Virus record (IMG/VR): IMGVR_UViG_3300028563_000018
Span: 1 to 64,000 of that record
Length of the DNA: 64,000 nt
Direction: 5' to 3' (one strand)
From: a virus
Under the pieces are notes generated by a model. That model was not told the DNA's origin. It saw only the letters and a list, made by a program, of their open reading frames with translations, and ran no database searches. Positions 3,943-62,202 of the stretch are shown here, one piece after another. Made by a program: the position numbers and the translations under genes. Position 1 is the stretch's first letter, and each line of letters begins with the position of its first letter.

Positions 3943-3954
3943 CCAACCCGACAC
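3943..3954 (+). promoter_or_regulatory. start-associated CCAACCCGACA box, copy 1
   Basis: ACCAACCCGACAC...AGGGAG upstream of ATG 3970. Confidence 0.7.
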
Positions 3955-6004: not shown

Positions 6005-6016
6005 CCAACCCGACAC
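6005..6016 (+). promoter_or_regulatory. start-associated CCAACCCGACA box, copy 2
   Basis: CCAACCCGACACGGTACACAAGGGAGA upstream of ATG 6036. Confidence 0.7.
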
Positions 6017-6035: not shown

Positions 6036-6323
6036 ATGGCGCTCTACGAAGCTGAGTTCGTGGTGAACCAGGGAACCTCTTTTGAACGCTGCATGACGCA
6101 GATCTTTGAGGCACCGATGCACCCGACGACGAAACGGCCCGCGACCAAATCGGCGTATGAGTACTTGCGCACATTGGCTCGCGACTTTGGGCACCCGACC
6201 ACCACGTCGGACGTGCACGTGCGCGTGTGTCTGTACTGGCCCCCGAAGTTCCACTACACGGCGGCGATGTCGCGGATCGGCCAGACCAGCGAGGTCGACG
6301 CGTTCGGGGTGCGCGTGCCATGA
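6036..6323 (+). CDS. hypothetical protein
   Basis: RBS AAGGGAG; coupled to the rIIA-like gene. Confidence 0.65.
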   Translation: MALYEAEFVVNQGTSFERCMTQIFEAPMHPTTKRPATKSAYEYLRTLARDFGHPTTTSDVHVRVCLYWPPKFHYTAAMSRIGQTSEVDAFGVRVP

Positions 6324-8353
6324 AGACCCACCTAGACATCAAACACGAAGGCACGCTCGGTACTGCCGATCTGAAAACGATCAAGTTCGACGAGGACGCC
6401 ACCGAGGTTCTGGAGGGCATCCTCATCGACCTGTACGGCGACTCCGAGCTTGCGACGATCCGCGAGATCGCCACCAACGCTGCGGACAGTCACGTCGCCG
6501 CCGGCAACTTGCGACCCATCGAAGTCGAGCTCCCGTCCGCGCTGCGCATGACCTACGTCGTGCGAGACCACGGCGTCGGTCTCGATCCCGACGACATCGA
6601 ACGGGTTTTCAAGTACGGCGCTTCCGACAAACGCGACACCGACGAGGCAGTCGGCATGCTCGGACTCGGCCTGAAGGCGCCACTGGCGTACACGAGTCAG
6701 TTCACGATGGTCGCCGTCAAGCACGGCACGAAGTCCACTGTGCTCGTCACCAGGAAAGAGTCCGGCGGCGGCGCATACCAGATCATCGACACCTGCGCGA
6801 CCGATGAACCGAACGGTGTTGAGATCACCATCCCGACGACCGGCTACACGAACTTCTGCGCGAAGGCCAACTTCTTCTTCCGGTTCTGGGAGCGCGGGTC
6901 TGTACTCGTCAACGGTGTGCTGCCGACGAACATCTTTCCTGGCCCGCGTGACCTTGTGCTCGACCCGGACGTGTTCATCACGACCCACCTCGAGCACGAC
7001 TACGTCGTCATGGGCAACGTGCCCTACGAGGTGCCGTGGGAAGAAGACGCTCTGGTGCGAGGCGATTCGCACGCGGTGGTGCGCGTTCCGATTGGGAGCG
7101 TCAACTTCACCCCGTCGCGCGAAGCGCTCAACATGACCAAGCGCACCAAGGAGGTGCTCCACGAAGCGCGTACCTTCATCAACGGCGGTCTGGAACGCCG
7201 GGTGCAAAACGAGATCGACGCGGCGCCGACCCACACCGCGGCGCTGCGCGTTGCCGCGTCATGGAACAAGGCGCTCAAGCTCTTCCCAAATCTGAACTAC
7301 CGCGGCGAGAGCATCCCGAGCGGGTTCATGATCCCGAAGGACGGCTCGAGCAAGCAGCATCTCTCGTGGGAAGTCTCGTCTAACTGGAACAAGGTCTACG
7401 GCAAGTTCATGTTCGAGGCCGAGTTCCTGTCGCGCCCCACCACACTGCACGTCGTCGGATCCAAGATCTACGGCCTGCGTGCCACCGTAAAGGACAAGAT
7501 CAAGCTCTACATCCAGGAGAACAACCTCGATGTCAAGCATGCGGTGCTGTACCCCGAGGCGCTCACTGACGGCAAGTGGCTCGACGACTGCCTCACGGTC
7601 GACTACTCGGTCATCCGAGAGATCAAGCTGCCCGACGACGGGATGGCGCGCAAGGCGCGTACCAAGACGTCGAAGGGTTCGTACCGCGTCGTCATGCAGT
7701 ACGGCGATGAGAAGGTTTACCCGGCCGACGAGATCATTCAGAATCATCTCGATCGCGTCGTCTACATGGGTGCCGGCATCCAGTTCGTCAAGCGCGAAGA
7801 GGTACGCAAGCGCGTCACGTCGGGCCATGCGTTGGTGATCGTGGAGAAGCCACAGCTCAACGGTTTCTTGAAGGACATCCCGAATGCTGTCAGTATCGAA
7901 CAGCACGTGCTCACGCGGTTGATCCCGTTCGTGAACCTGACACCCGTCGAGCAGTTCTTGTGTCACGCGAGCACGTGGGATCACACGCCGTTCGCGAAGT
8001 TGCCCGGCGGCAGCGCGAATGTGCTCGACCCTGAAGTGCGTGACCTGATCCAGTCCGTGAGCCAGGTGATCGGAAAGGGTCTGCACGTTGAGTTTGCTCA
8101 ACTGCGTTGGCTCGTCGCGAACTTCTGCGGCGTGGCGCCCCGAGTCAAGTTGCCCGAAACGCAGGCCGGTTTCAACGAGATCAACCAGCGAGTCCAAAAA
8201 CTGTCGCGTCGGTACCCGCTCGCGAGTTCCCGACCTTACGGAACGACGCCGAAGCACGTTCTCGATTACATCAACGCGATGCACCTCGCGCACGCGTGCC
8301 GATCGATCTTTACCAACCCGACACGCTCACCCAAGCAGGGAGAAACGAAATGA
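6320..8353 (+). CDS. rIIA: RIIA-like protein (N-terminal GHKL ATPase)
   Basis: 'IREIATNAADSH', 'DHGVGL', 'GMLGLGLK' GHKL boxes and 'FTPSREAL'; directly upstream of an rIIB-like gene. Confidence 0.85.
   Translation: MKTHLDIKHEGTLGTADLKTIKFDEDATEVLEGILIDLYGDSELATIREIATNAADSHVAAGNLRPIEVELPSALRMTYVVRDHGVGLDPDDIERVFKYGASDKRDTDEAVGMLGLGLKAPLAYTSQFTMVAVKHGTKSTVLVTRKESGGGAYQIIDTCATDEPNGVEITIPTTGYTNFCAKANFFFRFWERGSVLVNGVLPTNIFPGPRDLVLDPDVFITTHLEHDYVVMGNVPYEVPWEEDALVRGDSHAVVRVPIGSVNFTPSREALNMTKRTKEVLHEARTFINGGLERRVQNEIDAAPTHTAALRVAASWNKALKLFPNLNYRGESIPSGFMIPKDGSSKQHLSWEVSSNWNKVYGKFMFEAEFLSRPTTLHVVGSKIYGLRATVKDKIKLYIQENNLDVKHAVLYPEALTDGKWLDDCLTVDYSVIREIKLPDDGMARKARTKTSKGSYRVVMQYGDEKVYPADEIIQNHLDRVVYMGAGIQFVKREEVRKRVTSGHALVIVEKPQLNGFLKDIPNAVSIEQHVLTRLIPFVNLTPVEQFLCHASTWDHTPFAKLPGGSANVLDPEVRDLIQSVSQVIGKGLHVEFAQLRWLVANFCGVAPRVKLPETQAGFNEINQRVQKLSRRYPLASSRPYGTTPKHVLDYINAMHLAHACRSIFTNPTRSPKQGETK
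8313..8324 (+). promoter_or_regulatory. start-associated CCAACCCGACA box, copy 3
   Basis: TACCAACCCGACAC...AGGGAGA upstream of ATG 8350. Confidence 0.7.
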
Positions 8354-9462
8354 CACTCAAATACAACATCGTCCAAAACGACGGAGAGCAGTCCAGCGTG
8401 ACTGTCTTCATTCCTGGGAAGGACCCACTGGTTGCGACGCGCGAGCACCCGAAGTTCGATCAGATCGTGCGCGAGGTCTCGCAGCAACGTCCGGATCTCA
8501 CTGACACGTTCGTGAGTGGATTGGAAGGCTTGTTCGACGAGTCCCGCAAGCTCGCTGAGCACTTCAACCGGCTGTCCGATCGCATCAGTGTTGGTGCGGG
8601 TCGGGTTTACTTCGACATGATGCCGGTCGACAACGCGATCACGGCCGAGATCCTGCGGTACGTGAGTGCCGGCCTCGACGACTACAAGCCGCTCGTCAAC
8701 TTCATGGAGAAGATCGAGACGAACCCGCTTGAGCACAGCCGCCAGAACTTGTTCCGGTGGTTGGAGAAGCACGACTTCGCCATCGCTCCGGACGGCGACT
8801 TCTACGCCTACAAGGGGCTCGGTACCGGCTGGCTCTCGAGCAACTCGGGCCGGGCGATCGTCAACGGAGAAGTCCACCAGGGTCGCATCCCGAACCGACC
8901 TGGTTCGGTCATCGAGATGCCGCGCAACGAAGTCCAGCACGATCCGCGTCATGGGTGCTCGACGGGTCTGCACGTCGCCAACTGGATGTTCGCCAAGGAC
9001 TTCGCTCGTGGTGGTGGCGTCGTAAAGGTGAAGGTGAACCCACGCGACGTCGTGAGTGTGCCGACCGAAAGCAACGACGACAAGATGCGTGTCTGTCGCT
9101 ACGTCGTGATCGAGGTCGCCACCAGCGAGGACAAGAGCCTGTTGTTGCGGTCCGCAGAACGCACGGCGCGTGTCGTCGGCCAGGTCGACCCGAACGGCAA
9201 GAAGCTCAGCGAGCACGGACAAGCTCCTGCGAAAGCTCGCGTGCCCGGCAAGAAGAAGGCGCCCGCCAAGAAGGCAAAGCCGGTCGCGAAACTGCCCGAG
9301 TACTACGAGCAGTTCAATCGCACCCACTTCAACGCGCTTCCGTTGGCCGAGGTGAAATGGCTCGCTGGCGAGTGGGGGATCGTCGGTCGCTCAAAGATGT
9401 TCCCGTATGACCTCATCTCGGCGCTCATCAAAGAGGCACACGCTCGATTGAAGACCTGGTGA
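8350..9462 (+). CDS. rIIB: RIIB-like protein
   Basis: 'DGDFYAYK', 'EMPRNEV...CSTGLHV', 'VKVNPRDVVSVP...KMRVCRY' are RIIB motifs. Confidence 0.85.
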   Translation: MTLKYNIVQNDGEQSSVTVFIPGKDPLVATREHPKFDQIVREVSQQRPDLTDTFVSGLEGLFDESRKLAEHFNRLSDRISVGAGRVYFDMMPVDNAITAEILRYVSAGLDDYKPLVNFMEKIETNPLEHSRQNLFRWLEKHDFAIAPDGDFYAYKGLGTGWLSSNSGRAIVNGEVHQGRIPNRPGSVIEMPRNEVQHDPRHGCSTGLHVANWMFAKDFARGGGVVKVKVNPRDVVSVPTESNDDKMRVCRYVVIEVATSEDKSLLLRSAERTARVVGQVDPNGKKLSEHGQAPAKARVPGKKKAPAKKAKPVAKLPEYYEQFNRTHFNALPLAEVKWLAGEWGIVGRSKMFPYDLISALIKEAHARLKTW

Positions 9463-11286
9463 TGAGCCAGCAAGAGATCACTCGATGGACCTGCGATCGG
9501 TGCGGTCACACTGTGGATCAACCCGATCGGCCCGAGGTCTGGCAGACAGTCGGAGGTCGTGACGTTTGCTTCACGTGCATGCAAATCGTCAATCGGTTCG
9601 TGAACTCCGGGCCACCCGATGTCGCGAAGCTAGAGAAGTACCTCCAGACCATTCAGACCGTGACGCCCGCGGTCGTTCGACGAGTGTTGAAGCTCACGAC
9701 CGGCAGCGAGGAGGTCGGTCGTGGCTAAGAAGAAAGTGCCCCAGGAACGCTGCCTGGTGTGTCTCCAGAAGCCGTGCGAGTGCAAGCGTGTGCCCGCGTC
9801 ATCGTGGAAATCTGACGAGGAATATCTACCGCTCGACTACTTCGGACCGACCGCATCGTCAGTCGACGCCGTTCTCCAGATTCTAAACGCCGAGGAGGTG
9901 AGCGATGCCCCCGAAGGGTAGAACCCTGTACGACCCCGACAACAAGTTGGTGCGTGCGTTCGTCGAAGCGAGCGAAAAGACGAAGACGCCTGCCGAGCTG
10001 CGGGAGCTCGCACGCCGGCGCCCGCTGCTCGAGCTGACTTCGCCCGGTCTACTTCGGGTGCTCGATATGGTTGCCGGTCGGAGTTCCTACTCGGCACGTC
10101 GTGTCGGGAGATTGCGACGTGACCTGAAGTACGTGTACGACGAGGCGAAGCGCGCGGGGATCCTGCCGTGAACAGCGCTCCCAAGGTGTCACTCGTCAAC
10201 ATGAACGACGACGCTCTCTACTGCATTGAGTGTTCAGACAGATTCGCCTGCGACCACGTCCTCAACTACATGCGTGAGAACAAGGATATTCATCTCCCGA
10301 TCGGCTCTGTTTGGGTACCGATGTTCAAGACAGTAACGGTCGCCGCGTACGAACTTAAACCCTGGTCGATCCCCGTAATCGTCGGTCCCGAAGACTCCAA
10401 CCACATCGGGACCGTCCACTACGCCGCACCTAGCGATCATCTCGCGATGGGTGATGTGCTCTGTCTCGTCGGTCAGTACGACGGCCGCTACGCGATCCGC
10501 ACAGCGATCCTGAACGACCTGCACGCAATCGAGAAGGAGGGCCAGGGGCACTGTGGGGGCGAGTATCACGATGGTCGGTTCGATGTGCAATACGCGGGAT
10601 CCTCGATGGCACGCGCAAGACTGGTCGACACGTACTACCGCCGATACATCGGAGAGTGTTATCCGTGTCACCTCAGAAGCCAGTCCGGAAACGCGATCCC
10701 AGGAGGACTGAACGAGATTCAGCAGAACCTGCCGCCGAGGGCAGTCAAGTCAGTAAACCGGAAGACGGCGCGACGAGTATGAGCGCGTCCGACCTGATCA
10801 GCACGGAGGGGCGCGTTCGGGGTCGCGAGAACATCGACTACCGCTGCGACGAGTGCGGCACGCGCAAGAAGCGTGACGAACTCTTCGTGAAGCACATCCA
10901 GTGGCGCACGATGGGGAAAGGTCCACAGACGGTCCGAGCCCGCGTCGTCGCGTGGGTGTGCGGCGCGTGCATGAAGAAGGACCCCGACTACAACCGCACC
11001 CGGTTCGCCGACGCGCATGGGCACGCCCACACGAGTATCGGCAGACGGGCGATCATGGAGAAACAACCCGACAAGGAGAAATTCGATGGCTGAGCGGCTT
11101 CCAGAGCCTCACAAGAGTACGTTCCAGGGCGCCTTAGAGCGCAACTACGAAGAGGCTATCGAACTACTTCAACAGGTGGACCAGGCCGCACCAAAGAAGA
11201 AGAATACATACGCTCACAACGCCACCGTCCGCTGGACGATCATCGGCGAGATTCGCAAATACCTCCGCGAAGTTGGGCGTGGATGA
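9459..11286 (+). other. cluster of small hypothetical genes, several with CxxC zinc-ribbon motifs (9459-9728, 9721-9921, 9905-10171, 10168-10782, 10779-11093, 11086-11286)
   Basis: Coupled ORFs; CDRC...CFTC and CDEC...CGAC motifs; a CAACCCGACAAGG box at 11064 precedes 11086. Confidence 0.55.
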
Positions 11287-11933
11287 GAATGCCGCGCCGG
11301 ATAGCTAAATCTTCACAGCCCGGCTACTACGCCAAGAAGGAGTGGAACAAGGGCCGCGACTCTTGGGCGCAACTCAACGGAACAGAGTTCACCCTGTTCG
11401 TCGGCGACGGCGATCCCGAGAACGACGACCACATCGAGACGCCCGGCATCCCGTCCGTGCGAGTGCTCATCCGCAACGGGAACCGCGCTCCCACTCCGAT
11501 CACCCTGTCGAACATGACGGCCAACGAACTAGAGGTAATGCGCCTCTTTTGGGAACGCGCCATCAGCACAGCCCGACCGATCTGCGCGGCACTCGATGAA
11601 CGCGCTCAGGACAATCTTCAAGGAGGAACCGATGACGACGACTCTCTGCTCAGGCTCTATCGGCCAGTACCTCGACTCATTGTGCGCAATGGGCATGAGC
11701 CCACACACCGTGCGGGCTTACTCGTCGGACCTGAGAGCGATGGCGAGTTGGTTGGACCTGCACCCGGACGCCCAAGCGACTACCGAGACTCGGATAGCGA
11801 CCTATTTGACGACCCACCGTTCGAGTTGGAGCGCGAACACGACCAACCGGAAGTTGACAGCGGTGCGGTCCTGGGCGCGCTTCCAGGGGGAGCCGACGTT
11901 CCTGGAGAACTACCGGGCGCCGAAGGCGGCTGA
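11283..11933 (+). CDS. hypothetical protein; 3' part overlaps the recombinase gene
   Basis: ATGA-coupled start; acidic tail encoded in an alternate frame of the recombinase 5' region. Confidence 0.5.
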   Translation: MRMPRRIAKSSQPGYYAKKEWNKGRDSWAQLNGTEFTLFVGDGDPENDDHIETPGIPSVRVLIRNGNRAPTPITLSNMTANELEVMRLFWERAISTARPICAALDERAQDNLQGGTDDDDSLLRLYRPVPRLIVRNGHEPTHRAGLLVGPESDGELVGPAPGRPSDYRDSDSDLFDDPPFELEREHDQPEVDSGAVLGALPGGADVPGELPGAEGG

Positions 11934-12462
11934 CCAAGAGCCCCACCCCATCAGGGAGGGAATACCAGGGATCGACCGGATGCTCGAGATTCCGGTTACG
12001 CCATCCAAGAAAGCTCTTGTCGCCTTGTGTGGCCTGTGCGGATTGCGCGTTTCGGAAGCGTGCGCAGTACGTCCAGAAGATATCGACATCGACCGTTTAC
12101 TCCTTCGTGTTCGTGGGAAGGGTGACAAGACGCGCTACGTTCCGATCTCACGCAAAGCATGGATGCACATCATGCCTGCCGTCTTGGATGCGAGCATCGC
12201 GGGCGCTGTAGGGCGCTCTACGCTCGTCGGAACAGGTGAACGGTCCGCACGGGCGTCCATCACGTCGATTGCCCGGAGAGCGAAGCTCAGGCGGCGTGTG
12301 GCGTCGCATGATCTGCGCGCCACCTTCGCCACCGCGGCGCTCGACGCGACGAAGGATCTGCTCGCGGTCCAGCAGTTGTTGGGACACGCGGATCCGGCGA
12401 CGACGCAGATTTACACGAGTGTCTCGGAAGCACGTCGGCGTGACGCGGTGGAGGCGTTGTGA
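11632..12462 (+). CDS. XerC/D-like tyrosine recombinase (no arm-binding domain)
   Basis: RBS AGGAGG; 'GLRVSE', 'VRGKGDKTR', 'HDLRATFAT', 'LLGHADPATTQIY' give the R-K-H-R-H-Y catalytic set. Confidence 0.9.
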   Translation: MTTTLCSGSIGQYLDSLCAMGMSPHTVRAYSSDLRAMASWLDLHPDAQATTETRIATYLTTHRSSWSANTTNRKLTAVRSWARFQGEPTFLENYRAPKAADQEPHPIREGIPGIDRMLEIPVTPSKKALVALCGLCGLRVSEACAVRPEDIDIDRLLLRVRGKGDKTRYVPISRKAWMHIMPAVLDASIAGAVGRSTLVGTGERSARASITSIARRAKLRRRVASHDLRATFATAALDATKDLLAVQQLLGHADPATTQIYTSVSEARRRDAVEAL

Positions 12463-12659
12463 TGGAATACGAGTGCGGCACATGCGGCTCGCGCATTCTT
12501 GTGTTCTACGCGCAACCAGATCACCCCGCTGGACGCGTGTTCTGTGCTGATGGGTCACCAGAAAAATCGCACTGGGAGGTGATGTGCGGCGAGGGTCACC
12601 CGTTTGTGCCATACCCCGGTATGCGAATCGAGATCGATAGTCGAACGCAGCCGTTGTAA
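12462..12659 (+). CDS. small Cys/His-rich hypothetical protein
   Basis: Coupled ORF; 'YECGTCG'. Confidence 0.5.
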   Translation: MEYECGTCGSRILVFYAQPDHPAGRVFCADGSPEKSHWEVMCGEGHPFVPYPGMRIEIDSRTQPL

Positions 12660-12739
12660 TAGATAAAGATCCATCCAGCAGCTTGTAGAAGAGCATTCCC
12701 CTTCTTGTAGGGTCGGGCGGAACAGAAGTACCAGCCTCA

Positions 12740-12794
12740 TCGGGACCTGCCGGCAAAGCGTCTCCCGAGCCGAACCCCACAGGAGTTGCAGATC
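12740..12794 (+). promoter_or_regulatory. leader element A (hairpin loop CCTGCCGGCAAAGCG + AACCCCACAGGAG + GCAGATC)
   Basis: Stem TCGGGA/TCCCGA encloses the conserved loop, immediately upstream of ATG 12796. Confidence 0.8.
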
Positions 12795-12795
12795 A

Positions 12796-13416
12796 ATGAG
12801 TATTTTCAATCGCGACCGCGATCAAGAGGAAGAGCAAGTCGAAGCTGGTGACGGGAGTGAGGGCATCGCAGCCCCGGTAGTCGCCGACCCGCCGGTCGAG
12901 GCCGTCGAAGCTGTCGAAGAGCAGCAGGACGAAATCGACGGTTGGGAAGACCCCGAGCCTGCGCACGCGAGCACGGAGTCGCCCGAGGAACCGCCGACCG
13001 AGGAAGAGCAGCTCGACGACGACGAGCGTCGCCCTCGCGGGTGGCTCGAGTCCGACATCGAGAAGCTGATCAAGGCGATCCAGTCGGGTGAGGTGACGAT
13101 CGATCCGGTCGGCGCTCCGCTCACGCCGCACCTTCTGTCCAAGACCCTCACTAACGTCGAGGGGCTCGCGAAGGCGCCGTCCACTGGTGCCGTCTCGGCG
13201 GTGCTCGACCGGTGGGTCAACGTCGGTGCGGCCGAGACGAGTTCCAGGCCGTACGCGTTTGTCGACTTCACCCCCCAGGCGAAGGAGCACGGTATCGCCG
13301 GTCTCAAGCAGGCAATCAAGGACCAGCGCAAGGCCGAGAAGCAGGCCCAGAAGGACGCCGACACCGAGGCAGCGAAGCAGGCCGCGATCGAGGCTGCGGC
13401 TGACGCGGCGGAGTAG
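12796..13416 (+). CDS. acidic hypothetical protein, possibly nucleic-acid binding
   Basis: RBS AGGAG; E/D/P-rich N-terminus, compact central domain, K/A-rich C-terminal helix. Confidence 0.7.
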   Translation: MSIFNRDRDQEEEQVEAGDGSEGIAAPVVADPPVEAVEAVEEQQDEIDGWEDPEPAHASTESPEEPPTEEEQLDDDERRPRGWLESDIEKLIKAIQSGEVTIDPVGAPLTPHLLSKTLTNVEGLAKAPSTGAVSAVLDRWVNVGAAETSSRPYAFVDFTPQAKEHGIAGLKQAIKDQRKAEKQAQKDADTEAAKQAAIEAAADAAE

Positions 13417-13517
13417 TTACCAGGTGGAGCGGCCGGTGTACTACGCTTGGTGCCGTCTCCCTTACCTTGTCGGGTTGGTAGACACGTGGAGGGCCTGGAG
13501 CGATCCAGGTCCTTCAC
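13417..13517 (+). ncRNA. candidate 3'-UTR-derived antisense sRNA-2 ending in a GNRA-capped hairpin
   Basis: TCTCCCT-TA-CCTTGTCGGGTTGGTA (13456-13480) is the reverse complement of the CCAACCCGACA box + AGGGAGA; 14-bp stem 13486-13517 with GCGA loop. Confidence 0.6.
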
Positions 13518-13536
13518 CGCGTCAGGTTGCGATCTC

Positions 13537-13866
13537 GTGACGGACCTGATCGTCCAGGAAGACCCCGAGCCCGACCCCCTTCGCGGCGGCAAGCATTACG
13601 AGCACACGCCGGAGCTACCCCCGAGGCCGTTCCTCTACTCGATCGATCAGGTCGCCGCCCTTCTGTACGTCGACCTGGGCTACCTGAAGAGCAGGTACCT
13701 CCACTACGAGGGACGCACGCTCGGGCCGCACTACCCCGACTACATCTTGGTTCGCAACATCGCACCGAAGGGCAACGCTCCCGACTGGCGATGCGCTGAG
13801 CAGGAGTTCGCGCGCTGGTTGAAGCACAAGGGGTTTCGACTGCACCAGCGCGGGTGGGTGTCCTAA
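13537..13866 (+). CDS. putative HTH DNA-binding protein
   Basis: 'LYSIDQVAALLYVD' resembles an excisionase/MerR-like HTH start. Confidence 0.5.
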   Translation: MTDLIVQEDPEPDPLRGGKHYEHTPELPPRPFLYSIDQVAALLYVDLGYLKSRYLHYEGRTLGPHYPDYILVRNIAPKGNAPDWRCAEQEFARWLKHKGFRLHQRGWVS

Positions 13867-13962
13867 AACAACACGAGAACAACGGATACTGAGCACAAGA
13901 CACTCGAATTTGCTCACGCCACAAGCAGAAATAAAGATTTTCTAGGAATGACGGTTACCAGC

Positions 13963-13991
13963 TTGAAGCGTGATCTATCACGCAATAGCTT
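13963..13991 (+). promoter_or_regulatory. sigma-A-like promoter with a palindrome in the spacer
   Basis: TTGAAG-N17-TAGCTT; GCGTGAT-CT-ATCACGC at 13968-13983. Confidence 0.6.
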
Positions 13992-14006
13992 GCTTTCTTA
14001 CCAGGG

Positions 14007-14076
14007 GGCGGCGCGTCCTGCCGGCAAAGCGAACGCGCGCCACCTGCCTTTGCCGAACCCACAGGAGTACCTTCAG
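14007..14076 (+). promoter_or_regulatory. leader element B
   Basis: GC stem around CCTGCCGGCAAAGCGAAC (14017-14034), then AACCCACAGGAG (14056-14067), upstream of ATG 14077. Confidence 0.8.
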
Positions 14077-14898
14077 ATGGCCCTTGTTCCCAGCGCGCCC
14101 GGACTCGAGAACTACACCGGGATGGACGACCTCAGTCCTGAAGACCTGACGATGCCTCGGTTGGCAATCGGGTCGAACGAGAACGCAGGTGTGTTCATCG
14201 ACAGCCAGACCTCGCAGAAGTTCAGCGAGGTCGACATCATCATCCTCGGGATCATCAAGCAGCGGATCTTGTGGCCCGCCACGATGGGCGACCAGAAGTC
14301 GAACCCGCTGTGCCGGTCGTACGACTTCGACCGCGGTCATCCCGACGAGGACAAGTTCCCCTGGAAGCAGAGCGGCTACGACAAGGCCGTCATCCTCGGA
14401 ACCGAAGACAAGACGATCCCCTGCGACGCGTGTCCGTTGAAGGACTGGGGTTCGCACCCGGCGCGCGAGAAGGTGCCGTGGTGCAACGAGCAGATCGTGC
14501 TCGCGATCCTGTTGGCGCCGAGTTACTCCCCGGCGATCCTGACAGTGCAGGGATCGGGGCTCAAGCCGACCAGGGCGTACCTGACGAGCTTCACGCGTGA
14601 TCGGCTCCCGCCCTTCAACTGCGTCACGCACGTCGAATTGGACGTGAACACGCGCGGCACCGTCACCTACAGCGTGCCGAGGTTCAGCAAGCCCGGCGAG
14701 CAGACCGACGTCGACAAGTACGGCGAGTACGTCACGACGTACGAGGGCATGCGCAGGTTCGTGCAGACGCCCAGGTCTCGTGATGACGAGAATACCGACG
14801 CGACTCCCGCTACGTCTACGGCGAAGAGCACGCCCGCACCAGCTCCCGTAGCTGCGAGTGATGTCGATGCCGACGACGACGGGCCGCTTCCCTTTTAG
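14077..14898 (+). CDS. single-stranded DNA-binding-like protein
   Basis: Flexible P/A/T linker and acidic 'DDDGPLPF' SSB-Ct-like tail; replication-gene context. Confidence 0.6.
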   Translation: MALVPSAPGLENYTGMDDLSPEDLTMPRLAIGSNENAGVFIDSQTSQKFSEVDIIILGIIKQRILWPATMGDQKSNPLCRSYDFDRGHPDEDKFPWKQSGYDKAVILGTEDKTIPCDACPLKDWGSHPAREKVPWCNEQIVLAILLAPSYSPAILTVQGSGLKPTRAYLTSFTRDRLPPFNCVTHVELDVNTRGTVTYSVPRFSKPGEQTDVDKYGEYVTTYEGMRRFVQTPRSRDDENTDATPATSTAKSTPAPAPVAASDVDADDDGPLPF

Positions 14899-14904
14899 TT
14901 CTTC

Positions 14905-15002
14905 GCGCGCGTCCGGCTCCCCCAATACGGACGTGCGTTGGGTCGGCCCCATCGCTCGCGAGGACCCCCAACCTCGTTGAGCATCCCCGCTGGGGCCGAC
15001 CC
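14905..15002 (+). ncRNA. 6C-like structured RNA with C-rich loops
   Basis: Hairpin 14905-14938 with loop GCTCCCCCAATA; hairpin 14940-15002 (GGGTCGGCCCCA/TGGGGCCGACCC) with apical loop ACCCCCAA. Confidence 0.55.
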
Positions 15003-15049
15003 GCCGTTCTATCTCCGCGTGGAAACCCAACCCGATATCGAGGTACGGC

Positions 15050-15988
15050 ATGTGGTTCCTGAAGGCAGTTGCTAGAGGTAATGCCGGCAAGACCCTGGAC
15101 GGCAACGGCTGTCTCGCCGTGATCATCGTCATCGCTTTGGTTTGGGTCATCTCTGCCTTCTGGTGGGGATGGCTCTTCATGGTCATCACTGGTGCGTGCG
15201 GATGGCACATCCCGTACTTCCCGACAGGCGTTGCGTTCGGGTTCCTTCTCTCAATGGTGCTCGGCTGATGGTCTGGGCCATGTTCGGCTACGGCAGCGAG
15301 GACGAGTACAACGCCGCCCGCGCTGAACGCGAGAAGCAGATGGACGAGGCCCAGGCGCAGAGCGACCTGACCAACCATCAAGTCGTGCGCGTGATGAACG
15401 AGCTCGACGAAGAGCACTGCACGGTGTTCTACAAGGTGCTCGCCCAGGTCCGTGATGCTGGGAACGTGAGTTCCCTGGAAGCAGTCACCGCGGCCTTCTG
15501 GATCGGCGTGCTCCGTGGGCGCCTCAATGCCGTGTTCGGCGTGTGCATGTCGTGCGGCAAGAAGCACGACGACGAGTTCGCACGTCTCATCGAAAACCAA
15601 CCCGACAAGGACACTCCCTCATGAAGAAGCGCACCCTGCGCGTATGGCTCGCGAGCCATCCGTGGCACAAGGACGACGTGCGTGGCGTGGCGATCTTCAC
15701 CGTTTTGGCGGGGGCGCTCTACTGCTACGACCGTCCGTTGGACGACGACAATGCCGAGTGCGTGCACGTGTACGCGCCGGGTGCGTGGGTCAGCGCGGAG
15801 TGGTTGGGATGAAAATCAAGAGCCGAGTCGAGGCACGCAATCAGATCCTCGACGCCGCAAACCGAGCGCGTCGAGAACCGAGCCATCCGTGGCTGACGAT
15901 GAAGCATCTTCAGCGCGCGGTATTTCGGTGTCGCCAGCGCGGGCTCGTCAGCGCTCAGACACTCGTCGACGCGGGATTCAGATCATGA
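15050..15988 (+). other. small genes: membrane protein 15050-15268; hypotheticals 15268-15624, 15621-15812, 15809-15988
   Basis: Coupled ORFs; CCAACCCGA boxes at 15027 and 15597. Confidence 0.55.
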
Positions 15989-17439
15989 CCCTCACGACGG
16001 CGACCCGCGGGTCGCTCAAGAAGATCCGTGATGATCTCGCGCTGTACCCCCACCAGATCGACGGGATCCGAACCCTCGCGCGCCGCAGCAGCTTCCTTCT
16101 CGCCGACGAGATGGGGCTCGGCAAGAGCATCCAGGCGCTCACGGTCGCAGCGATCGACTTCGAGAAGAACCCGAACGCTCGCGTGCTCATTGTGGCGCCC
16201 GCCTCCCTGAAGTGGAACTGGCAAGCCGAGATCTTGGCCTTCACCTACTTCAACTGCCTGATCCTGGACGGCACGCGCAAGCAACGCGACATGCAGTTGC
16301 TCCAGTTCTCCAGTAACGAGTTCGACATCCTGATCGTCAACTACGAACAAGTCGTCGCCCATCTCGACGACATCAACGCTCTGCACTTCAACATCGTGAT
16401 CGCCGATGAAGCGCACCTGATCAAGTCACCGAAAGCGAAGCGCACGAAGGCTCTCCAGGGCATCGAGGCTGACCGGTTCTTCCTGCTGACCGGGTCGCCG
16501 TTGCTCAACCAGGCCAACGATCTCTGGTCGCTGATCTACCGGATCGACCCGAATCTGTTCCCCAAGTATTACTCGTTCATCCAGAGATTTTGCGTCATGG
16601 GTGGCTACCAGGGCAAGCAGATCGTCGGTGTGAAGCACCACCGAGAGCTGTCCGAGAAGCTCAACTCCGTCATGCTGCGGCGCGAGAAGAAGGACGTGCT
16701 CGATCTGCCCGACAAGATCCGCATCCCGATCGTAGTGGACCTTCATCCCGAGCAGGCGAAGCTCTACAAGCAGGCCGTCGAGGAACTCCAGATCACGTTG
16801 CCGGATCGCCCGGATGCGATGGAACTTGAGAACGCGCTCACGAAGATGCTGCGCCTCAAGATGATTTGCGGGACGACGGCCTGCATTCCCGGCTACCCCG
16901 ACCATTCTTCCAAACTCGATATTGCTGTCGAGAGAGCGTGCGAAGTGATTGCGGGGGGCGAGCCAGTCGTAATCTTCACGCAGTTCCGCGAGGTACAGCG
17001 GTGCATGGTCGAGCGGCTCAAGAAGTTGGGTCACGAATCGTTCGTACTCAACGGCGATACGCCGATGAAGGATCGCGTGCCGACCGTGCAGCGATGGGAG
17101 GCGACAGCGACGCGCCAGGGCCTCACCCCGAAGAACCCAAGCGCACTTGTCGCCATGCTGCAAGTCGCCGGCGTCGGGCTCAACATGACCGCTGCCTCGA
17201 CTGCGATCTTCATCGACAAGCTCTGGGTGCCCGCGCTGAACATCCAGGCCGAAGATCGTCTGCACCGCATCGGGCAGAAGAGCACGGTGACCATCATCGA
17301 GGTCATCGCTCGTAAGACCGTCGAGCAGCGCGTGCTCCAGATCTTGCAACGCAAATCGAAGTTGTTCGGCACGTTGATCGGAGACAACGACAAGTTCAAG
17401 CGCGCTCTCGTGGAGAGCCTGATGGATGAGGACTTCTGA
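15985..17439 (+). CDS. SNF2-family helicase
   Basis: 'LADEMGLGKS', 'DEAH', 'LTGSP', 'GVGLNMT', 'QAEDRLHRIGQ'. Confidence 0.92.
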   Translation: MTLTTATRGSLKKIRDDLALYPHQIDGIRTLARRSSFLLADEMGLGKSIQALTVAAIDFEKNPNARVLIVAPASLKWNWQAEILAFTYFNCLILDGTRKQRDMQLLQFSSNEFDILIVNYEQVVAHLDDINALHFNIVIADEAHLIKSPKAKRTKALQGIEADRFFLLTGSPLLNQANDLWSLIYRIDPNLFPKYYSFIQRFCVMGGYQGKQIVGVKHHRELSEKLNSVMLRREKKDVLDLPDKIRIPIVVDLHPEQAKLYKQAVEELQITLPDRPDAMELENALTKMLRLKMICGTTACIPGYPDHSSKLDIAVERACEVIAGGEPVVIFTQFREVQRCMVERLKKLGHESFVLNGDTPMKDRVPTVQRWEATATRQGLTPKNPSALVAMLQVAGVGLNMTAASTAIFIDKLWVPALNIQAEDRLHRIGQKSTVTIIEVIARKTVEQRVLQILQRKSKLFGTLIGDNDKFKRALVESLMDEDF

Positions 17440-33825: not shown

Positions 33826-35573
33826 AGTGTGCTCGTGTTCGGCAGGACGCCCATGTAGGGGATCGTCAGCACGCCGTATTCACGGACACTCAACCCGGCC
33901 TCTCGCGCAAAGTTCATCTTGTCTACGTCGACCGTGTAGACATCGCCGAAGGGCGTGCGGATCATCAGGTCAAAGCTCTCGTTGATCGCGAGATCCTTGA
34001 GACCGGCGATGATTTGACGCTTCTCGCGCGCGGTTGCGTAGGCGGTGTCGGTCAGGTGCACGGTCAGCGAGCCGTTCACTCCTAGCTTCGTGCTGTACTC
34101 GACGCGTCGCCCACGCCCGAGCAGATGCAACTCGTTCGTGTCGTACTCGTCGTCGAAGGCGTCGCTTGTCACGCCCTCTAGAAGAAAGAAGGAACCAACT
34201 GAACGAAGCACGTACGAGCTCGCCGGCGTGCTGTCCAGGTTCGACGCGAGGAACAGGCTGTAGTTGGAGTTGATCGCAGCGATGTTCGTCTGGACGTTGG
34301 TAGGATCCGAGAGCACGTTCGCGCCGAACCGCGTCGCGACCTGCACAACCTTGTAGTCGTTCAGATCTCCTGCGGCGTAGTCGTGGAAGGTGTAATTCGA
34401 CGAGTTGACCGTCTCGACGTCGATAAGTTCCCACTGATTCGGATCGACGATGCCGCCGAAGCCGGTGACCGTGGTATCCCAGCGACGACGACGGAACACC
34501 CACCAGGCGACCCATGTGCTGTCCTTGGAGGCGTTGGTCCACGCGACCGTCACGTAACCAAGAGTGGCGAAGGGGGAGGGGTCGACCGTGAACGACGGCG
34601 CCGCTGGCGACGACCAGGCAGTCGTGAACGCGTGCGTCCCGTCGCTGGTGAGACCAACTCCGTCAGTGACGTTGACCTGGACGGTGTAGCTGTTGCTGTT
34701 CTTGAGGATCCCGCTCGGCAACGCGAACGAGAGCGGGTTGCCCGCGAGCACGCCTGACAGGTAAACGACGGTGCCACCGGCGGTGACGTCGTAGATGATC
34801 ACCTCATAGAACGCACCAGCCGTCGAATCCGAATACGTCCAGGTGACCGTCGGCGTCGGGTTGGTGATCGCTCCGGTGGGAGCGGTGACGGTGATGACCG
34901 GCGCGTCGGCCAACACGAACGGTACGAGGTCGGAGACTGGTCCTTGCTGGCCGTCCCGATCCCACAAGGTGACAGACCAGTAGAGCTGCTCACCTTTGTG
35001 GCCGACAGCAATCGAGATGCCGCTGATCACGTTGTTGGGCGACGTGACCTTCGTGGTGTCAACGATCGGCGTCAACGTGTGGTCGTAGATGATGATCTGG
35101 TAGGCGGTCTGCGTGTCGCCGGGATCTGTGTCGTTGAACCCCCAAGCGAACACCTGCGAGCCATACAAGGTCGCCGTGCTCGCCAGACTCGACGGCGACA
35201 TATTGATCGCCTTCGGTGGATGCGAGATCGGGAAGACAACATACGGCGACCAGTCACTCGCGACCCAAATGCCTCCGTTGGCGGCGGGTACTGCTCGAGC
35301 GCGCACGTACCAGGTGCCGACACTCAGGCGCTGCGCGTCGGGAATCGTCGCGTTGTGGATCGTGCCGACCTGAGCGAGTGCGCTGTCGGGCTCGACGTAG
35401 TTTCCGGTGTTGGTGGTGAAACCAGCGTCCGACGCCCACTGCCATTCGACCTTGATGAACGGGAACGGCGAGAAGGTCGAGTTGATGATGTTCGCGCTGA
35501 GCACCGGCGTGTCGGTACCCTGCTGCGTCGTGGGACCGATCGCGTGCGGTGGGACAGGCCAGGGATTGCTCAC
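33822..35573 (-). CDS. minor tail protein (Ig/FN3-like domains, distal-tail-like C-terminus)
   Basis: Immediately follows the tape measure; beta-rich repeats. Confidence 0.7.
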   Translation of the reverse strand: MSNPWPVPPHAIGPTTQQGTDTPVLSANIINSTFSPFPFIKVEWQWASDAGFTTNTGNYVEPDSALAQVGTIHNATIPDAQRLSVGTWYVRARAVPAANGGIWVASDWSPYVVFPISHPPKAINMSPSSLASTATLYGSQVFAWGFNDTDPGDTQTAYQIIIYDHTLTPIVDTTKVTSPNNVISGISIAVGHKGEQLYWSVTLWDRDGQQGPVSDLVPFVLADAPVITVTAPTGAITNPTPTVTWTYSDSTAGAFYEVIIYDVTAGGTVVYLSGVLAGNPLSFALPSGILKNSNSYTVQVNVTDGVGLTSDGTHAFTTAWSSPAAPSFTVDPSPFATLGYVTVAWTNASKDSTWVAWWVFRRRRWDTTVTGFGGIVDPNQWELIDVETVNSSNYTFHDYAAGDLNDYKVVQVATRFGANVLSDPTNVQTNIAAINSNYSLFLASNLDSTPASSYVLRSVGSFFLLEGVTSDAFDDEYDTNELHLLGRGRRVEYSTKLGVNGSLTVHLTDTAYATAREKRQIIAGLKDLAINESFDLMIRTPFGDVYTVDVDKMNFAREAGLSVREYGVLTIPYMGVLPNTSTL

Positions 35574-42035: not shown

Positions 42036-42091
42036 GATCTGCCTCGCTGTGGGTTTGTGCGGCCCGTTCGCTTTGCCGGCAGTGGGCCTGC
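42036..42091 (-). promoter_or_regulatory. leader element C
   Basis: GGCCC/GGGCC stem around ACTGCCGGCAAAGCGAAC, then AACCCACAGCGAGGCAGATC-ATG. Confidence 0.8.
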
Positions 42092-42102
42092 GGTTTAACT
42101 TC

Positions 42103-50972: not shown

Positions 50973-51032
50973 CTTCCGAATCTCCTCGTACCGTGGGTTT
51001 GTGACGGAGTCGCTTTGCCGGCAGGCCCGTCA
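50973..51032 (-). promoter_or_regulatory. leader element D
   Basis: TGACGG/CCGTCA stem around GCCTGCCGGCAAAGCGACT, then AAACCCACGGTACGAGGAG upstream of the capsid ATG. Confidence 0.8.
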
Positions 51033-51049
51033 GGGATTGATCTTGCGTG

Positions 51050-58156: not shown

Positions 58157-58208
58157 AAAAAGAAAAGGGGCCAGGGGTGCCTGCCGGCAAGCGAACCACC
58201 CCTGGCCC
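58157..58208 (-). terminator. intrinsic terminator of sRNA-1
   Basis: 12-bp stem GGGCCAGGGGTG/CACCCCTGGCCC followed on the - strand by TTTTCTTTTT. Confidence 0.8.
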
Positions 58209-58248
58209 AACCCACAGCGAGCAGATCCGTAGATCCTCCTGCCGTGTC
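58157..58248 (-). ncRNA. candidate antisense sRNA-1 (terminated late-operon leader)
   Basis: Own promoter, 5' hairpin with cUACGg loop, terminator hairpin whose loop GUUCGCUUGCCGGCAGG is complementary to leader elements A-D. Confidence 0.75.
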
Positions 58249-60911: not shown

Positions 60912-61125
60912 GTACCTAGACATCCCCCAAGTAGCCGAGATGTTCGGCGTCAACCCACGCACCGTCTACAAGTGGACAGTCGAACGCAAGATTCCATTCT
61001 TCAAGCTGAACAAGATGATCCGGTTCAGCCGAACCGAGATCGAGGCGTGGCTCGAGCAGCATCATCACCGCGTGATCGATGAGACTACGTTGGCGGAACG
61101 TACAGACGTCCGACTCGATCACTGA
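60904..61125 (+). CDS. xis: excisionase-like HTH protein
   Basis: 'YLDIPQVAEMFGVNPRTVYKW...IPFFKL...IRF'; convergent with the integrase. Confidence 0.8.
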   Translation: MPEYLDIPQVAEMFGVNPRTVYKWTVERKIPFFKLNKMIRFSRTEIEAWLEQHHHRVIDETTLAERTDVRLDH

Positions 61126-62191: not shown

Positions 62192-62202
62192 GGTCGCATC
62201 GT

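What the first reader, a model, noticed from the sequence alone, without database searches (positions are those of the whole stretch)
13417..13517. Candidate sRNA-2 in the 3' UTR of gene 12796, antisense to a start-associated box of six early genes
Seen in sequence: 13456-13480 reads TCTCCCTTACCTTGTCGGGTTGGTA, the only reverse-orientation copy I found of the CCAACCCGACA box. It is joined to an anti-SD UCUCCCU that matches the AGGGAG(A) RBS of genes 3970, 6036 and 8350. Contiguous complementarity reaches 15 nt at 15596 (ACCAACCCGACAAGG) and 13 nt at 8311 and 11064. On the - strand no start codon follows it, so it is not another start-associated copy. A 14-bp GCGA-tetraloop hairpin (13486-13517) closes the unit. 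Inference: a processed 3'-UTR RNA that shuts off early-gene translation, including the rIIA/rIIB region.
Basis: partly seen in the sequence, partly recalled or inferred. Interest (0 to 1): 0.85.

Follow-up and report, generated by a model that had tools for sequence, protein, structure and literature searches.

The report
Inverted start-tag copy, candidate anti-leader RNA
An uncultured soil phage marks six of its genes with the same 11-letter tag just before the ribosome-binding site and keeps one mirror-image copy of that tag next to a strong RNA hairpin, so one RNA may control translation of the whole set; nobody has yet seen this RNA.

Summary
CCAACCCGACA occurs exactly five times in the 72.9-kb phage contig, against 0.055 expected. 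Four exact and two one-mismatch copies lie 12-26 nt before ATG codons of + strand genes, including the rIIA-upstream gene and rIIB. The single exact inverted copy (13468-13478) lies in the 120-nt spacer between gene 12796 and an HTH gene that starts at GTG 13537.

The inverted copy also carries an SD-like AAGGGAGA and has no start codon. A 14-bp GNRA hairpin follows it, and that hairpin is far more stable in the + strand RNA (-26.4 vs -17.5 kcal/mol).

The best reading (about 0.42) is that the + strand RNA, as a 3'-end fragment or as part of the mRNA, pairs with the tagged leaders and blocks ribosome binding. No expression or conservation data could be obtained, and any inverted copy is automatically complementary to the forward copies.

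The rivals are a DNA-binding site, an inverted leader cassette, and a local leader or uORF for the HTH gene.

The closest known systems are Cluster K SAS, whose single reverse copy I found in a conserved hairpin loop, and the P1 c4 and P4 CI antisense RNAs. This scan has noted the same layout on five other phage genomes.

The parts
12796..13416 (+). Upstream gene (206 aa; acidic N-terminus, HTH-like C-terminal part). The spacer that follows its stop codon carries the candidate RNA.
   Evidence: ORF, GC3 0.81. Matches phrog_15020 'HTH DNA binding protein' at 2.3e-11. Homologues in Gordonia and Tsukamurella phages keep the same gene order.
13417..13536 (+). 120-nt spacer between gene 12796 and the HTH gene.
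   Evidence: Sequence. No Rfam family at E<=1 within 11000-16000 falls here. The consensus scan finds no sigma-70-like promoter and no U-tract terminator. GC3 of the two open frames through it is 63% and 65% (hand count), against 0.81 in both neighbouring genes.
13456..13462 (+). Anti-SD segment TCTCCCT, the complement of AGGGAGA.
   Evidence: AGGGAG(A) is the SD of genes 3970, 6036 and 8350.
13465..13480 (+). Anti-box: the exact reverse complement of CCAACCCGACA at 13468-13478, with matching flanks.
13486..13517 (+). 14-bp hairpin with a GCGA (GNRA) tetraloop and two G-U pairs. Possible 3' end, stabiliser or processing site of the + strand RNA.
   Evidence: -26.4 kcal/mol, z -5.7 on the + strand; -17.5 kcal/mol, z -2.4 on the - strand. 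Second strongest of 36 hairpins. No T run follows it.
13436..13540 (+). Possible 34-codon upstream ORF. GTG 13436 is preceded by GGTGGAG, and its TGA overlaps GTG 13537 as GTGA. This is the alternative, cis reading of the spacer.
   Evidence: Frame shown. SD score -6.0 is better than in 2/3 of 60 gene starts. GC3 is only 65% (hand count). No homologue was tested.
13537..13866 (+). Downstream MerR-like HTH gene (109 aa).
   Evidence: phrog_6746 at 2.2e-17. The N-terminus MTDLIVQED aligns with the MPSIFDED and MSSFDED starts of Demosthenes gp58 and Woes gp61. Gene callers are split between 109 aa and 126 aa.
3943..3953 (+). Forward box, 16 nt before ATG 3970.
6005..6015 (+). Forward box, 20 nt before ATG 6036 (the gene just upstream of rIIA). 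Its leader matches the inverted unit best: box + GGTA + AAGGGAGA.
   Evidence: The box is unchanged in a 96.7%-identical metagenome contig.
8313..8323 (+). Forward box, 26 nt before ATG 8350 (rIIB). It lies inside the last 13 codons of rIIA.
   Evidence: rIIA homologue alignments end at residue 686 of 708.
11063..11073 (+). Forward box with 1 mismatch at its first base. It abuts the SD AAGGAGA of ATG 11086.
15027..15037 (+). Forward box with 1 mismatch (C10 to T, which still pairs with G13469 as a G-U wobble), 12 nt before ATG 15050.
15597..15607 (+). Forward box, 13 nt before ATG 15621. It shares a 15-nt contiguous match with the inverted copy.
12740..12795 (+). 'Class II' leader of gene 12796: a hairpin holding the conserved CTGCCGGCAAAGCG in its loop, then AACCCCACAGGAG and the ATG.

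Best explanation
The spacer after gene 12796 is transcribed on the + strand together with that gene. Its 13456-13480 segment is the exact complement of the phage's private start-associated box plus a Shine-Dalgarno sequence. This segment base-pairs in trans with the 5' leaders of the six box-tagged genes (3970, 6036 just upstream of rIIA, 8350 = rIIB, 11086, 15050, 15621) inside the ribosome-binding window, and so lowers their translation. Pairing in cis within a polycistronic RNA is also possible.

The GNRA hairpin at 13486-13517 closes or stabilises the 3' side of the active RNA.

Gene 12796 has a different ('class II') leader, shared with the major head and a tail gene. The RNA would therefore appear with a second expression class and act on the first.

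Shown: the anatomy, the non-random complementarity, the strand bias of the hairpin, and the predicted openness of the targets. Inferred: that the RNA exists as a stable species, that pairing occurs in vivo, the direction of the effect (repression), and the timing.
For: 1. The inverted copy is not chance: 5 exact copies against 0.055 expected.

2. It matches the consensus 11/11, while 2 of the 6 start-associated forward copies deviate. Similarity stops at the box plus flanks, so it is not a recent large inverted duplication.

3. It carries AAGGGAGA 5 nt from the box, which a pure DNA-site reading does not explain, and no start codon follows on the - strand.

4. No terminator lies between the stop of gene 12796 and the anti-box. 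Any + mRNA of that gene therefore contains it.

5. The hairpin is strand-specific: -26.4 kcal/mol (z -5.7) with a GNRA loop on the + strand, against -17.5 (z -2.4) on the - strand.

6. The forward boxes are predicted open. Mean opening energy is 2.75 kcal/mol for 6 boxes against 6.21 for 105 control windows (one-sided Mann-Whitney p 0.0008).

7. With opening costs included, the six tagged leaders rank 1, 2, 3, 4, 6 and 8 of 64 start regions. Net energies are -18.5 to -2.3 kcal/mol, and five of the six are at or below -8.6.

8. The internal mismatch in a start-associated copy (15027, C to T) keeps pairing as a G-U wobble.

9. The box is unlikely to be a promoter. The phage has an ordinary TTGACA-17-TTCAAT promoter at about 72385, and the box can abut the SD.

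10. A parallel exists in Cluster K mycobacteriophages. Anaya has 16 forward SAS and 1 reverse SAS. The reverse copy sits in the loop of a hairpin that is kept in 9 of the 12 Cluster K phages fetched. That hairpin has 18 of 144 cells as G-U pairs valid only on the anti-SAS strand, and 1 compensatory pair.
Against: - No RNA data exist for this phage, and no relative with DNA could be fetched, so there is no conservation or covariation test of this locus (see Tried and rejected).
- Any inverted copy is complementary by construction, so the energy ranking is not independent evidence.
- The anti-box is not displayed in a loop. The 5' domain 13417-13482 is no more structured than shuffles (z -0.3), and opening the seed costs 6.2-16.7 kcal/mol.
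- The hairpin has no U tract, and no promoter was found.
- Read on the - strand, the locus has the order hairpin, box, SD, which is the architecture of the class II leaders.
- The spacer can also be read as a uORF coupled to the HTH gene.
- The function of the forward boxes themselves is unknown, and the box is absent from Demosthenes and Woes.
- In 3 of the 12 Cluster K phages fetched (TClif, Yuna, Keshu) the anti-SAS loop is missing or unrecognisable.
- One close variant of this phage appears to break one stem pair. A13490T is inferred from the E2V change in P0001.
Confidence: 0.42

Rival explanations
1. The box is a DNA site for a phage- or host-encoded DNA-binding protein (stoperator- or operator-like). 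The inverted copy is simply one more bound site, here in front of the HTH gene, and no RNA pairing is involved.
For: The box is short and asymmetric. Its forward copies lie on the + strand, like the nearby genes, and near gene starts, as described for L5 stoperators (mentioned in PMC3203893, passages read; details recalled). Two HTH genes flank the inverted copy. The inverted box ends 7 nt before GTG 13486, which two gene callers took as the start. The phage has two tyrosine recombinase genes and so may be temperate.
Against: - It does not explain the SD-like AAGGGAGA beside the inverted copy, nor the + strand-specific hairpin.
- Copies are confined to about 12 kb of the + strand block, with none at start sites in the structural arm.
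- GTG 13486 is the first base of a -26 kcal/mol stem, and alignment with homologues favours GTG 13537 as the start.
- Palindromic TGTGACA/TGTCACA repeats at about 72.2-72.35 kb look more like the repressor's operators.
Confidence: 0.15
2. The locus is an inverted copy of a whole leader cassette (hairpin, box, SD). It either serves a - strand transcript, such as an antisense RNA to the 3' end of gene 12796, or is a remnant of a lost leftward gene.
For: On the - strand the order is hairpin, 8 nt, AACCCGACA, SD. This is the same order as in the five class II leaders. The unit closely resembles the 6005 leader: box, GGTA, AAGGGAGA.
Against: - No start codon follows, and frame 1 after the SD stops after 4 codons (and hand reading).
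- No - strand promoter was found, and the surrounding genes identified by family matches are all + strand.
- The hairpin is 8.9 kcal/mol weaker on the - strand and loses the GNRA loop.
- An unconstrained relic would not be expected to keep 11/11 plus flanks when functional forward copies vary.
- Similarity does not extend beyond the box.
Confidence: 0.15
3. The spacer is a local cis-acting leader of the HTH gene. A short uORF (GTG 13436 to TGA 13540) is translationally coupled to GTG 13537, or an SD/anti-SD pairing together with the hairpin gates translation. Under this reading the match to the box has no trans function.
For: GTG 13537 has a weak SD (-3.2 kcal/mol; only 33% of 60 gene starts are as weak or weaker) and overlaps the uORF stop as GTGA. 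GTG 13436 has GGTGGAG 6 nt upstream. In Demosthenes and Woes the homologous HTH gene overlaps an upstream gene. In the predicted fold GGUGGAG pairs with the CUCCC of the anti-SD.
Against: It does not explain an exact 11-nt (15 nt with flanks) copy of a motif expected 0.055 times in the contig. The 5' domain fold is no better than shuffles (z -0.3). The uORF GC3 is 65% against 81% in real genes (hand count). This reading is compatible with the trans reading and does not exclude it.
Confidence: 0.15
4. Chance occurrence with no function.
For: Many phage windows were scanned, so rare coincidences will be picked up. One-mismatch hits in coding sequence do occur.
Against: The expected number of exact copies on both strands is 0.055 per contig. 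On top of that come the intergenic position, the adjacent SD-like heptamer and the adjacent second-strongest hairpin.
Confidence: 0.03

Closest known systems
Start-associated sequences (SAS/ESAS) of Cluster K mycobacteriophages (Pope et al. 2011, PMC3203893; passages read). Their function is still called unknown in 2024-2025 papers (PMC11373665 and PMC12699233, passages read).
   Same: - A short asymmetric private motif lies in one orientation before the start codons of a subset of non-structural genes.
- Some copies have an upstream inverted repeat or hairpin.
[quoted passage not shown]
- I confirmed 16 forward and 1 reverse copy in Anaya. The reverse copy sits in a hairpin loop that is kept in 9 of the 12 Cluster K phages fetched.
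   Different: - The motif sequence is different, and the SAS consensus is absent here (0 hits with up to 2 mismatches).
- SAS contains the RBS and lies 3-9 nt from the start. This box lies upstream of a separate SD, 12-26 nt from the start.
- Here the inverted copy is in a linear stretch before a hairpin, not in a loop.
- In Anaya a canonical terminator separates the upstream gene from the reverse copy. Here nothing does.
- The phages are unrelated (Gordonia-phage-like gene order).
c4 antisense RNA of phages P1/P7 (Citron and Schuster 1990; seen only as a passage and reference in the review PMC12197685; details recalled), and the CI RNA of satellite phage P4 (recalled, no call).
   Same: It works like these. 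One short RNA is made from the same transcription unit as its targets and carries the complement of short sequences repeated in direct orientation. Pairing with them blocks a ribosome-binding site (c4) or elongation (CI).
   Different: Those RNAs act on one or two sites of a single immunity operon and are processed by known RNases. Here six or more separate genes would be targeted, processing is unknown, and there is no sequence or structural similarity (no Rfam hit).
3'-UTR-derived regulatory sRNAs of enterobacteria (for example CpxQ, SroC; recalled, no call).
   Same: The position is immediately after a stop codon and ends in a stable hairpin shared with the mRNA. The seed lies upstream of the hairpin.
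   Different: Those sRNAs end in a U-tract terminator and depend on Hfq and RNase E. Here there is no U tract, and the likely actinobacterial host lacks Hfq (recalled). The host is inferred only from distant relatives.
Stoperators of mycobacteriophage L5 and Cluster A (named in PMC3203893; details recalled).
   Same: An asymmetric short motif near gene boundaries, oriented with transcription, with rare exceptions in orientation.
   Different: Stoperators number about 20-30 and cover both genome arms (recalled). Here there are 6-7 copies within about 12 kb. Protein binding could not be tested.

Membership tests
Cluster K SAS/ESAS | 13-bp consensus GGGATAGGAGCCC (up to 2 deviations) | tested here: not met
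   0 matches in the window with up to 2 mismatches. The box here is CCAACCCGACA.
Cluster K SAS/ESAS | The motif contains the RBS and lies 3-9 nt from the start codon | tested here: not met
   The box ends 12-26 nt before the ATG, and a separate SD follows it or abuts it.
Cluster K SAS/ESAS | One orientation, non-structural arm only, plus a single reverse copy not at a gene start | tested here: met
   Six start-associated forward copies lie at 3.9-15.6 kb in the + strand block. There is one exact reverse copy without a start codon and no start-associated copies in the structural genes.
Cluster K SAS/ESAS | A subset of copies has an upstream imperfect 17-bp inverted repeat (ESAS) | tested here: inconclusive
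   A related core, AACCC(N)ACA, follows a hairpin in five 'class II' leaders. However, the hairpin loop is conserved rather than the arms, and these are not the box-tagged genes.
c4/CI-type processed antisense RNA | An RNA segment complementary to short direct repeats in the target transcripts, overlapping the ribosome-binding region | tested here: met
   11-15 nt of perfect complementarity to six leaders, plus an anti-SD.
c4/CI-type processed antisense RNA | A stable small RNA processed from the operon transcript | not testable with these tools
   No RNA run holds the locus, and the contigs that were laid cannot show RNA ends.
c4/CI-type processed antisense RNA | Sequence or structure homology to c4 or CI | tested here: not met
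   No Rfam family matches the spacer at E<=1.
3'-UTR-derived sRNA | Lies between a stop codon and the mRNA's intrinsic terminator (stem plus U tract) | tested here: inconclusive
   A stable stem is present. No T run follows it, and the terminator scan does not list it.
L5-type stoperator | Bound by the phage repressor on dsDNA; many sites across both arms | not testable with these tools
   Binding could not be tested. The distribution (6-7 sites within about 12 kb) does not resemble the genome-wide pattern.
Sigma-70/SigA-type promoter | -35 and -10 hexamers at 16-19 nt spacing upstream of a transcription start | tested here: not met
   No promoter-like site lies at any box or in the spacer. 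The flanks of the boxes share no -35-like element.

The most novel reading that the evidence does not exclude
Phages may commonly run an 'anti-leader' switch. A private tag is placed in the 5' leaders of a gene set, and exactly one inverted copy of the tag is transcribed as RNA that pairs with all of them. A single RNA then times translation of a whole regulon. In this phage, an RNA made with the class II gene 12796 would turn down the box-tagged genes, including the rIIA/rIIB region. The same logic would give a function to the SAS of Cluster K mycobacteriophages, whose role has stayed unknown since 2011, and would fit the five similar loci this scan has already noted.
Probability: 0.3. Interest if true: 0.85.

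Novelty: new variant of a known kind. Interest (0 to 1): 0.6.

Why it matters
If true, one small RNA would coordinate translation of a set of phage genes through a tag that only the phage uses. Post-transcriptional control of this kind has not been described for actinobacteriophages. A 2025 review of phage sRNAs has no occurrence of 'Mycobacteri' or 'early genes' in my term search of it.

It would also give a testable function to start-associated sequences, which the 2024 and 2025 papers I read in passages still call unexplained. Those phages are cultivable, and an Adephagia RNA-seq study is published.

Practically, such tag and anti-tag pairs would be compact, orthogonal translation switches for actinobacterial genetics.

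Tried and rejected
Searches for relatives with DNA:
- IMG/VR by protein: the HTH gene, the 13948 gene and an alignment of the HTH protein with P0002 gave no relative.
- IMG/VR by a 21-nt stretch of the anti-box gave no match.
- IMG/VR by 'box, gap, GGAG' gave at least 118 loci. Every one of the 80 rows shown was a single hit on its own contig, so I treated them as background and did not analyse them further.
- JGI metagenomes by rIIA gave one 1,321-nt, 96.7%-identical contig that covers only the 6005 box.
- GTDB genomes by the SNF2 helicase gave two unrelated Clostridia MAG hits.
- The 'phages' collection by DNA gave one 149-nt match at 68%.

Expression:
- No RNA holder is listed for 13200-13900.
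- Laying four DNA runs gave only identical short contigs, and 13492-13535 had almost no cover. No variation data resulted.

Other checks:
- Rfam gave nothing at the locus.
- The consensus promoter and terminator scan found nothing at the locus.
- A first duplex calculation with full-length sequences gave meaningless end-to-end duplexes. I replaced it with a seed-limited calculation.
- In some searches I entered two start coordinates 10 nt off (14087 for 14077, 42025 for 42035). After correction the ranking was unchanged.
- The earlier-findings index had nothing for this genome or for look-alike sequence.
- I considered and rejected the box as a -35 element, because the start codon is too close (12-26 nt).
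- I considered and rejected GTG 13486 or TTG 13447 as the HTH start, because of the homologue N-termini and family length.

Full report
CONTEXT

The window is the first 64 kb of a single 72,872-bp contig with about 60% G+C. The contig is a tailed phage.
- On the - strand, 31-57 kb encodes terminase, portal, protease, major head, tail, tape measure and minor tail proteins.
- On the + strand, 0.4-31 kb encodes a CobT-like protein, small genes, rIIA (6227-8353) and rIIB (8350-9462), a tyrosine recombinase (11596-12462), gene 12796-13416, a MerR-like HTH gene, an SNF2 helicase, DnaQ, a sliding clamp and others.

The nearest named phages are Gordonia phages such as Demosthenes, Woes and GMA7, and Tsukamurella phages TIN2-4. 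They are only about 30-39% identical in protein but have the same gene order: CobT, small genes, gp60-like, HTH, gp57-like, helicase, DnaQ, clamp. The DNA occurs in rhizosphere metagenome runs.

CHECK OF THE OBSERVATION

- 13456-13480 reads as stated.
- CCAACCCGACA occurs exactly 5 times in the contig, against 0.055 expected in 200 Markov-1 shuffles. With up to 1 mismatch there are 11 hits in the window against 1.54 expected.
- Four exact copies (3943, 6005, 8313, 15597) and two one-mismatch copies (11063, 15027) lie on the + strand. They end 12-26 nt before the ATGs at 3970, 6036, 8350, 11086, 15050 and 15621.
- The only exact copy on the other strand is 13468-13478. The three other - strand hits have one mismatch and, on my crude ORF map, lie in coding sequence.
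- The contiguous matches of 15, 13 and 13 nt are as stated. There are also 12 nt to 3942 and 16 nt with one mismatch to 6005.
- The inverted copy is followed on its own strand by AGGTA and AAGGGAGA, and by no ATG, GTG or TTG.
- The hairpin 13486-13517 has 14 pairs (two G-U) and a GCGA loop. It folds at -26.4 kcal/mol with z -5.7. It is the second strongest of the 36 simple hairpins at or below -22 kcal/mol in the contig.

ANATOMY OF THE SPACER

The downstream HTH gene most likely starts at GTG 13537.
- Its family profile is 108 long and matches from residue 56 of the longest ORF.
- A 70%-identical homologue lacks the extension.
- The N-terminus MTDLIVQED aligns with the starts of Demosthenes gp58 and Woes gp61.
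- Gene callers on public copies chose either 13537 or 13486.

The spacer is therefore 13417-13536.
- It has no Rfam match.
- The consensus scan finds no promoter or U-tract terminator in it.
- Its third-position G+C is lower than in its neighbours: 63-65% by hand count, against 0.81.
- The hairpin is clearly built for the + strand RNA. On the - strand the two G-U pairs become mismatches, the GNRA loop is lost, and the energy falls to -17.5 kcal/mol, z -2.4.
- The part that holds the anti-box (13417-13482) folds no better than shuffles, z -0.3.
- A possible 34-codon uORF runs from GTG 13436, preceded by GGTGGAG, to a TGA that overlaps GTG 13537 as GTGA. I keep this as a rival reading.

WHAT THE FORWARD BOXES ARE

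- They are tied to translation starts rather than to intergenic space. The copy before rIIB lies within the last 13 codons of rIIA, beyond the part conserved in homologues.
- In three copies the box abuts the SD; in the others it lies 8-15 nt upstream of it.
- No shared -35-like element precedes them.
- The phage has an ordinary TTGACA-17-TTCAAT promoter with a leaderless ATG at about 72385-72425. A promoter role for the box is therefore unlikely.
- As RNA the boxes are predicted to be unusually open. Mean opening energy is 2.75 kcal/mol for 6 boxes, against 6.21 for 105 control windows taken from the upstream regions of 35 other + strand genes (p 0.0008).
- A second leader type exists. Five copies of a hairpin have stems that all differ and a conserved loop, CTGCCGGCAAAGCG(A). 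The hairpin is followed by AACCC(C)ACAG (ACGG in one copy), an SD and, in four of the five, an ATG. These lie before gene 12796, the gene starting at ATG 14077, the major head gene and a tail gene. A fifth copy lies 116 nt before the primase gene, with no start codon beside it.
- The core AACCC(N)ACA is common to both leader types.

PAIRING

I confined the seed to 13450-13485 and added opening energies for both partners. On this measure the six tagged leaders rank 1, 2, 3, 4, 6 and 8 of 64 start regions. Net energies are -18.5, -15.4, -14.9, -14.6, -8.6 and -2.3 kcal/mol. One class II leader (14077) ranks fifth.

The 6036 leader pairs over box, GGUA and AAGGGAGA. The internal mismatch of the 15027 copy keeps pairing as a G-U wobble.

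All duplexes lie between roughly -40 and -10 relative to the start codon, which is inside the region a 30S subunit covers (established knowledge, recalled). This ranking is expected for any inverted copy. It shows feasibility, not function.

COMPARATIVE EVIDENCE

For this phage there is none. Eight searches of public collections found no relative carrying this spacer:
- IMG/VR.
- JGI metagenomes.
- GTDB genomes.
- The 'phages' collection by DNA.

The box is absent from Demosthenes and Woes; hits there equal the control pattern.

I therefore tested the analogous case in print. Pope et al. [quoted passage not shown] They also state that SAS might be bound by an RNA or a protein.
- In Anaya I found 16 forward copies and 1 reverse copy.
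- The reverse copy lies in a 385-nt spacer after a canonical terminator.
- On the + strand, 10 of its 13 bases form the loop of a hairpin.
- The 171-nt segment around the reverse copy matches 142 Cluster K records, of which I fetched 12.
- In 9 of those 12 the two-tier hairpin is kept. It has 16 pairs, 1 compensatory pair, 2 broken cells and 18 of 144 cells as G-U pairs that are valid only on the anti-SAS strand.
- In 7 of the 9 the loop is identical.
- I left TClif, Yuna and Keshu out of that fold because the segment is diverged, deleted or replaced in them.

This supports the general idea that such inverted copies act as RNA. It does not prove it for this phage.

The scan's notebook lists five other phage genomes with the same layout. 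These are unchecked notes and I do not count them as independent evidence.

MECHANISM AND ODDS

Best reading (0.42): the + strand RNA of the spacer pairs with the box-tagged leaders and hinders ribosome binding, and the GNRA hairpin protects or defines its 3' side. The RNA could act as a fragment or as part of the gene 12796 mRNA. Because gene 12796 carries the other leader type, this would let one expression class turn down another.

Rivals:
- A dsDNA protein site (0.15).
- An inverted leader cassette serving a - strand RNA, or a relic (0.15).
- A local uORF or leader of the HTH gene (0.15).
- Chance (0.03).

The SD-like heptamer beside the inverted box, the perfect match to the consensus and the strand bias of the hairpin all favour the RNA reading. 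Against it stand the lack of any expression or conservation data, the unexposed seed, the missing U tract and the class II-like order on the - strand.

NOVELTY

The mechanism works like the c4 RNA of P1/P7 and the CI RNA of P4, and the motif system looks like SAS. The locus is a member of neither family: the sequence and position criteria are not met.

My two full-text searches did not turn up a multi-target anti-leader RNA in an actinobacteriophage:
- 'start-associated sequence' + 'phage' gave 8 papers.
- Phage-encoded sRNA terms gave 6 papers.

My term search of the 2025 review found no occurrence of 'Mycobacteri' or 'early genes'. I rate the finding as a new variant of a known kind, with interest 0.6.

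Noticed in passing
window 12740-12795 (+), 14010-14076 (+), 58163-58216 (+), 50973-51035 (-), 42036-42095 (-): A second leader element occurs in five copies. A hairpin has a stem sequence that differs in every copy, while its loop CTGCCGGCAAAGCG(A) is conserved. AACCC(C)ACAG (ACGG in one copy), an SD and, in four of the five, an ATG follow. The copies precede gene 12796, the gene at ATG 14077, the major head gene and a tail gene. The copy at 58181 lies 116 nt before the primase gene and has no adjacent start codon. All five fold the same way.
   Followed up: partly
window 13948-14898: The class II leader lies inside the 5' end of this ORF. The real start is therefore probably ATG 14077, not ATG 13948.
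   Followed up: partly
G000 contig 71523-72424 (beyond the window's end): A 0.9-kb non-coding region holds repeated CCGTAGAA/CCTGTAGAA words, TGTGACA/TGTCACA palindromic repeats, and a TTGACA-17-TTCAAT promoter directly before a leaderless ATG at 72425. It is probably the origin and/or the immunity and early control region.
   Followed up: no
G000 contig 72692-72722 (beyond the window's end): A two-mismatch box variant, CAAACCCGACC, is followed by GGGAG and ATG 72723. It may be a seventh start-associated copy.
   Followed up: no
window 11596-12462 (+) and 61085-62224 (-): The phage has two tyrosine recombinase genes. No integrase is annotated in the 18-kb syntenic stretches of Demosthenes and Woes. 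The 333-nt spacer after the first recombinase gene might hold an attachment site.
   Followed up: no
window 6227-9462: An rIIA/rIIB pair (phrog_612 at 5e-76, phrog_609 at 7e-57) sits in a 73-kb siphovirus-like genome. It is not annotated at this position in the syntenic Gordonia phage stretches. The best rIIA matches are large Streptomyces and Rhodococcus phages at 32-37% identity.
   Followed up: partly
L124 (Mycobacterium phage Anaya) 34850-34902; the same segment in L127-L134: The single reverse SAS of Cluster K phages forms the loop of a conserved two-tier hairpin on the + strand. It follows another strong hairpin at 34804-34840. Some records annotate a hypothetical protein across this segment.
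   Followed up: partly
L119 (Gordonia phage Demosthenes) upstream of locus 3458, 4097, 4639; L123 (Woes) upstream of locus 2655, 5193, 9387: The relatives use other repeated upstream words: GGTACCAC or GGTACCGT in Demosthenes, and SigA-like TTGACA...GGTACTAT or TAATAT in Woes. They do not have the box of this phage.
   Followed up: no
window 13490: A public variant of the HTH ORF begins MVGLERS instead of MEGLERS. This implies A13490T, which would turn one A-U pair of the hairpin into a U-U mismatch, with no compensating change visible at the protein level.
   Followed up: no
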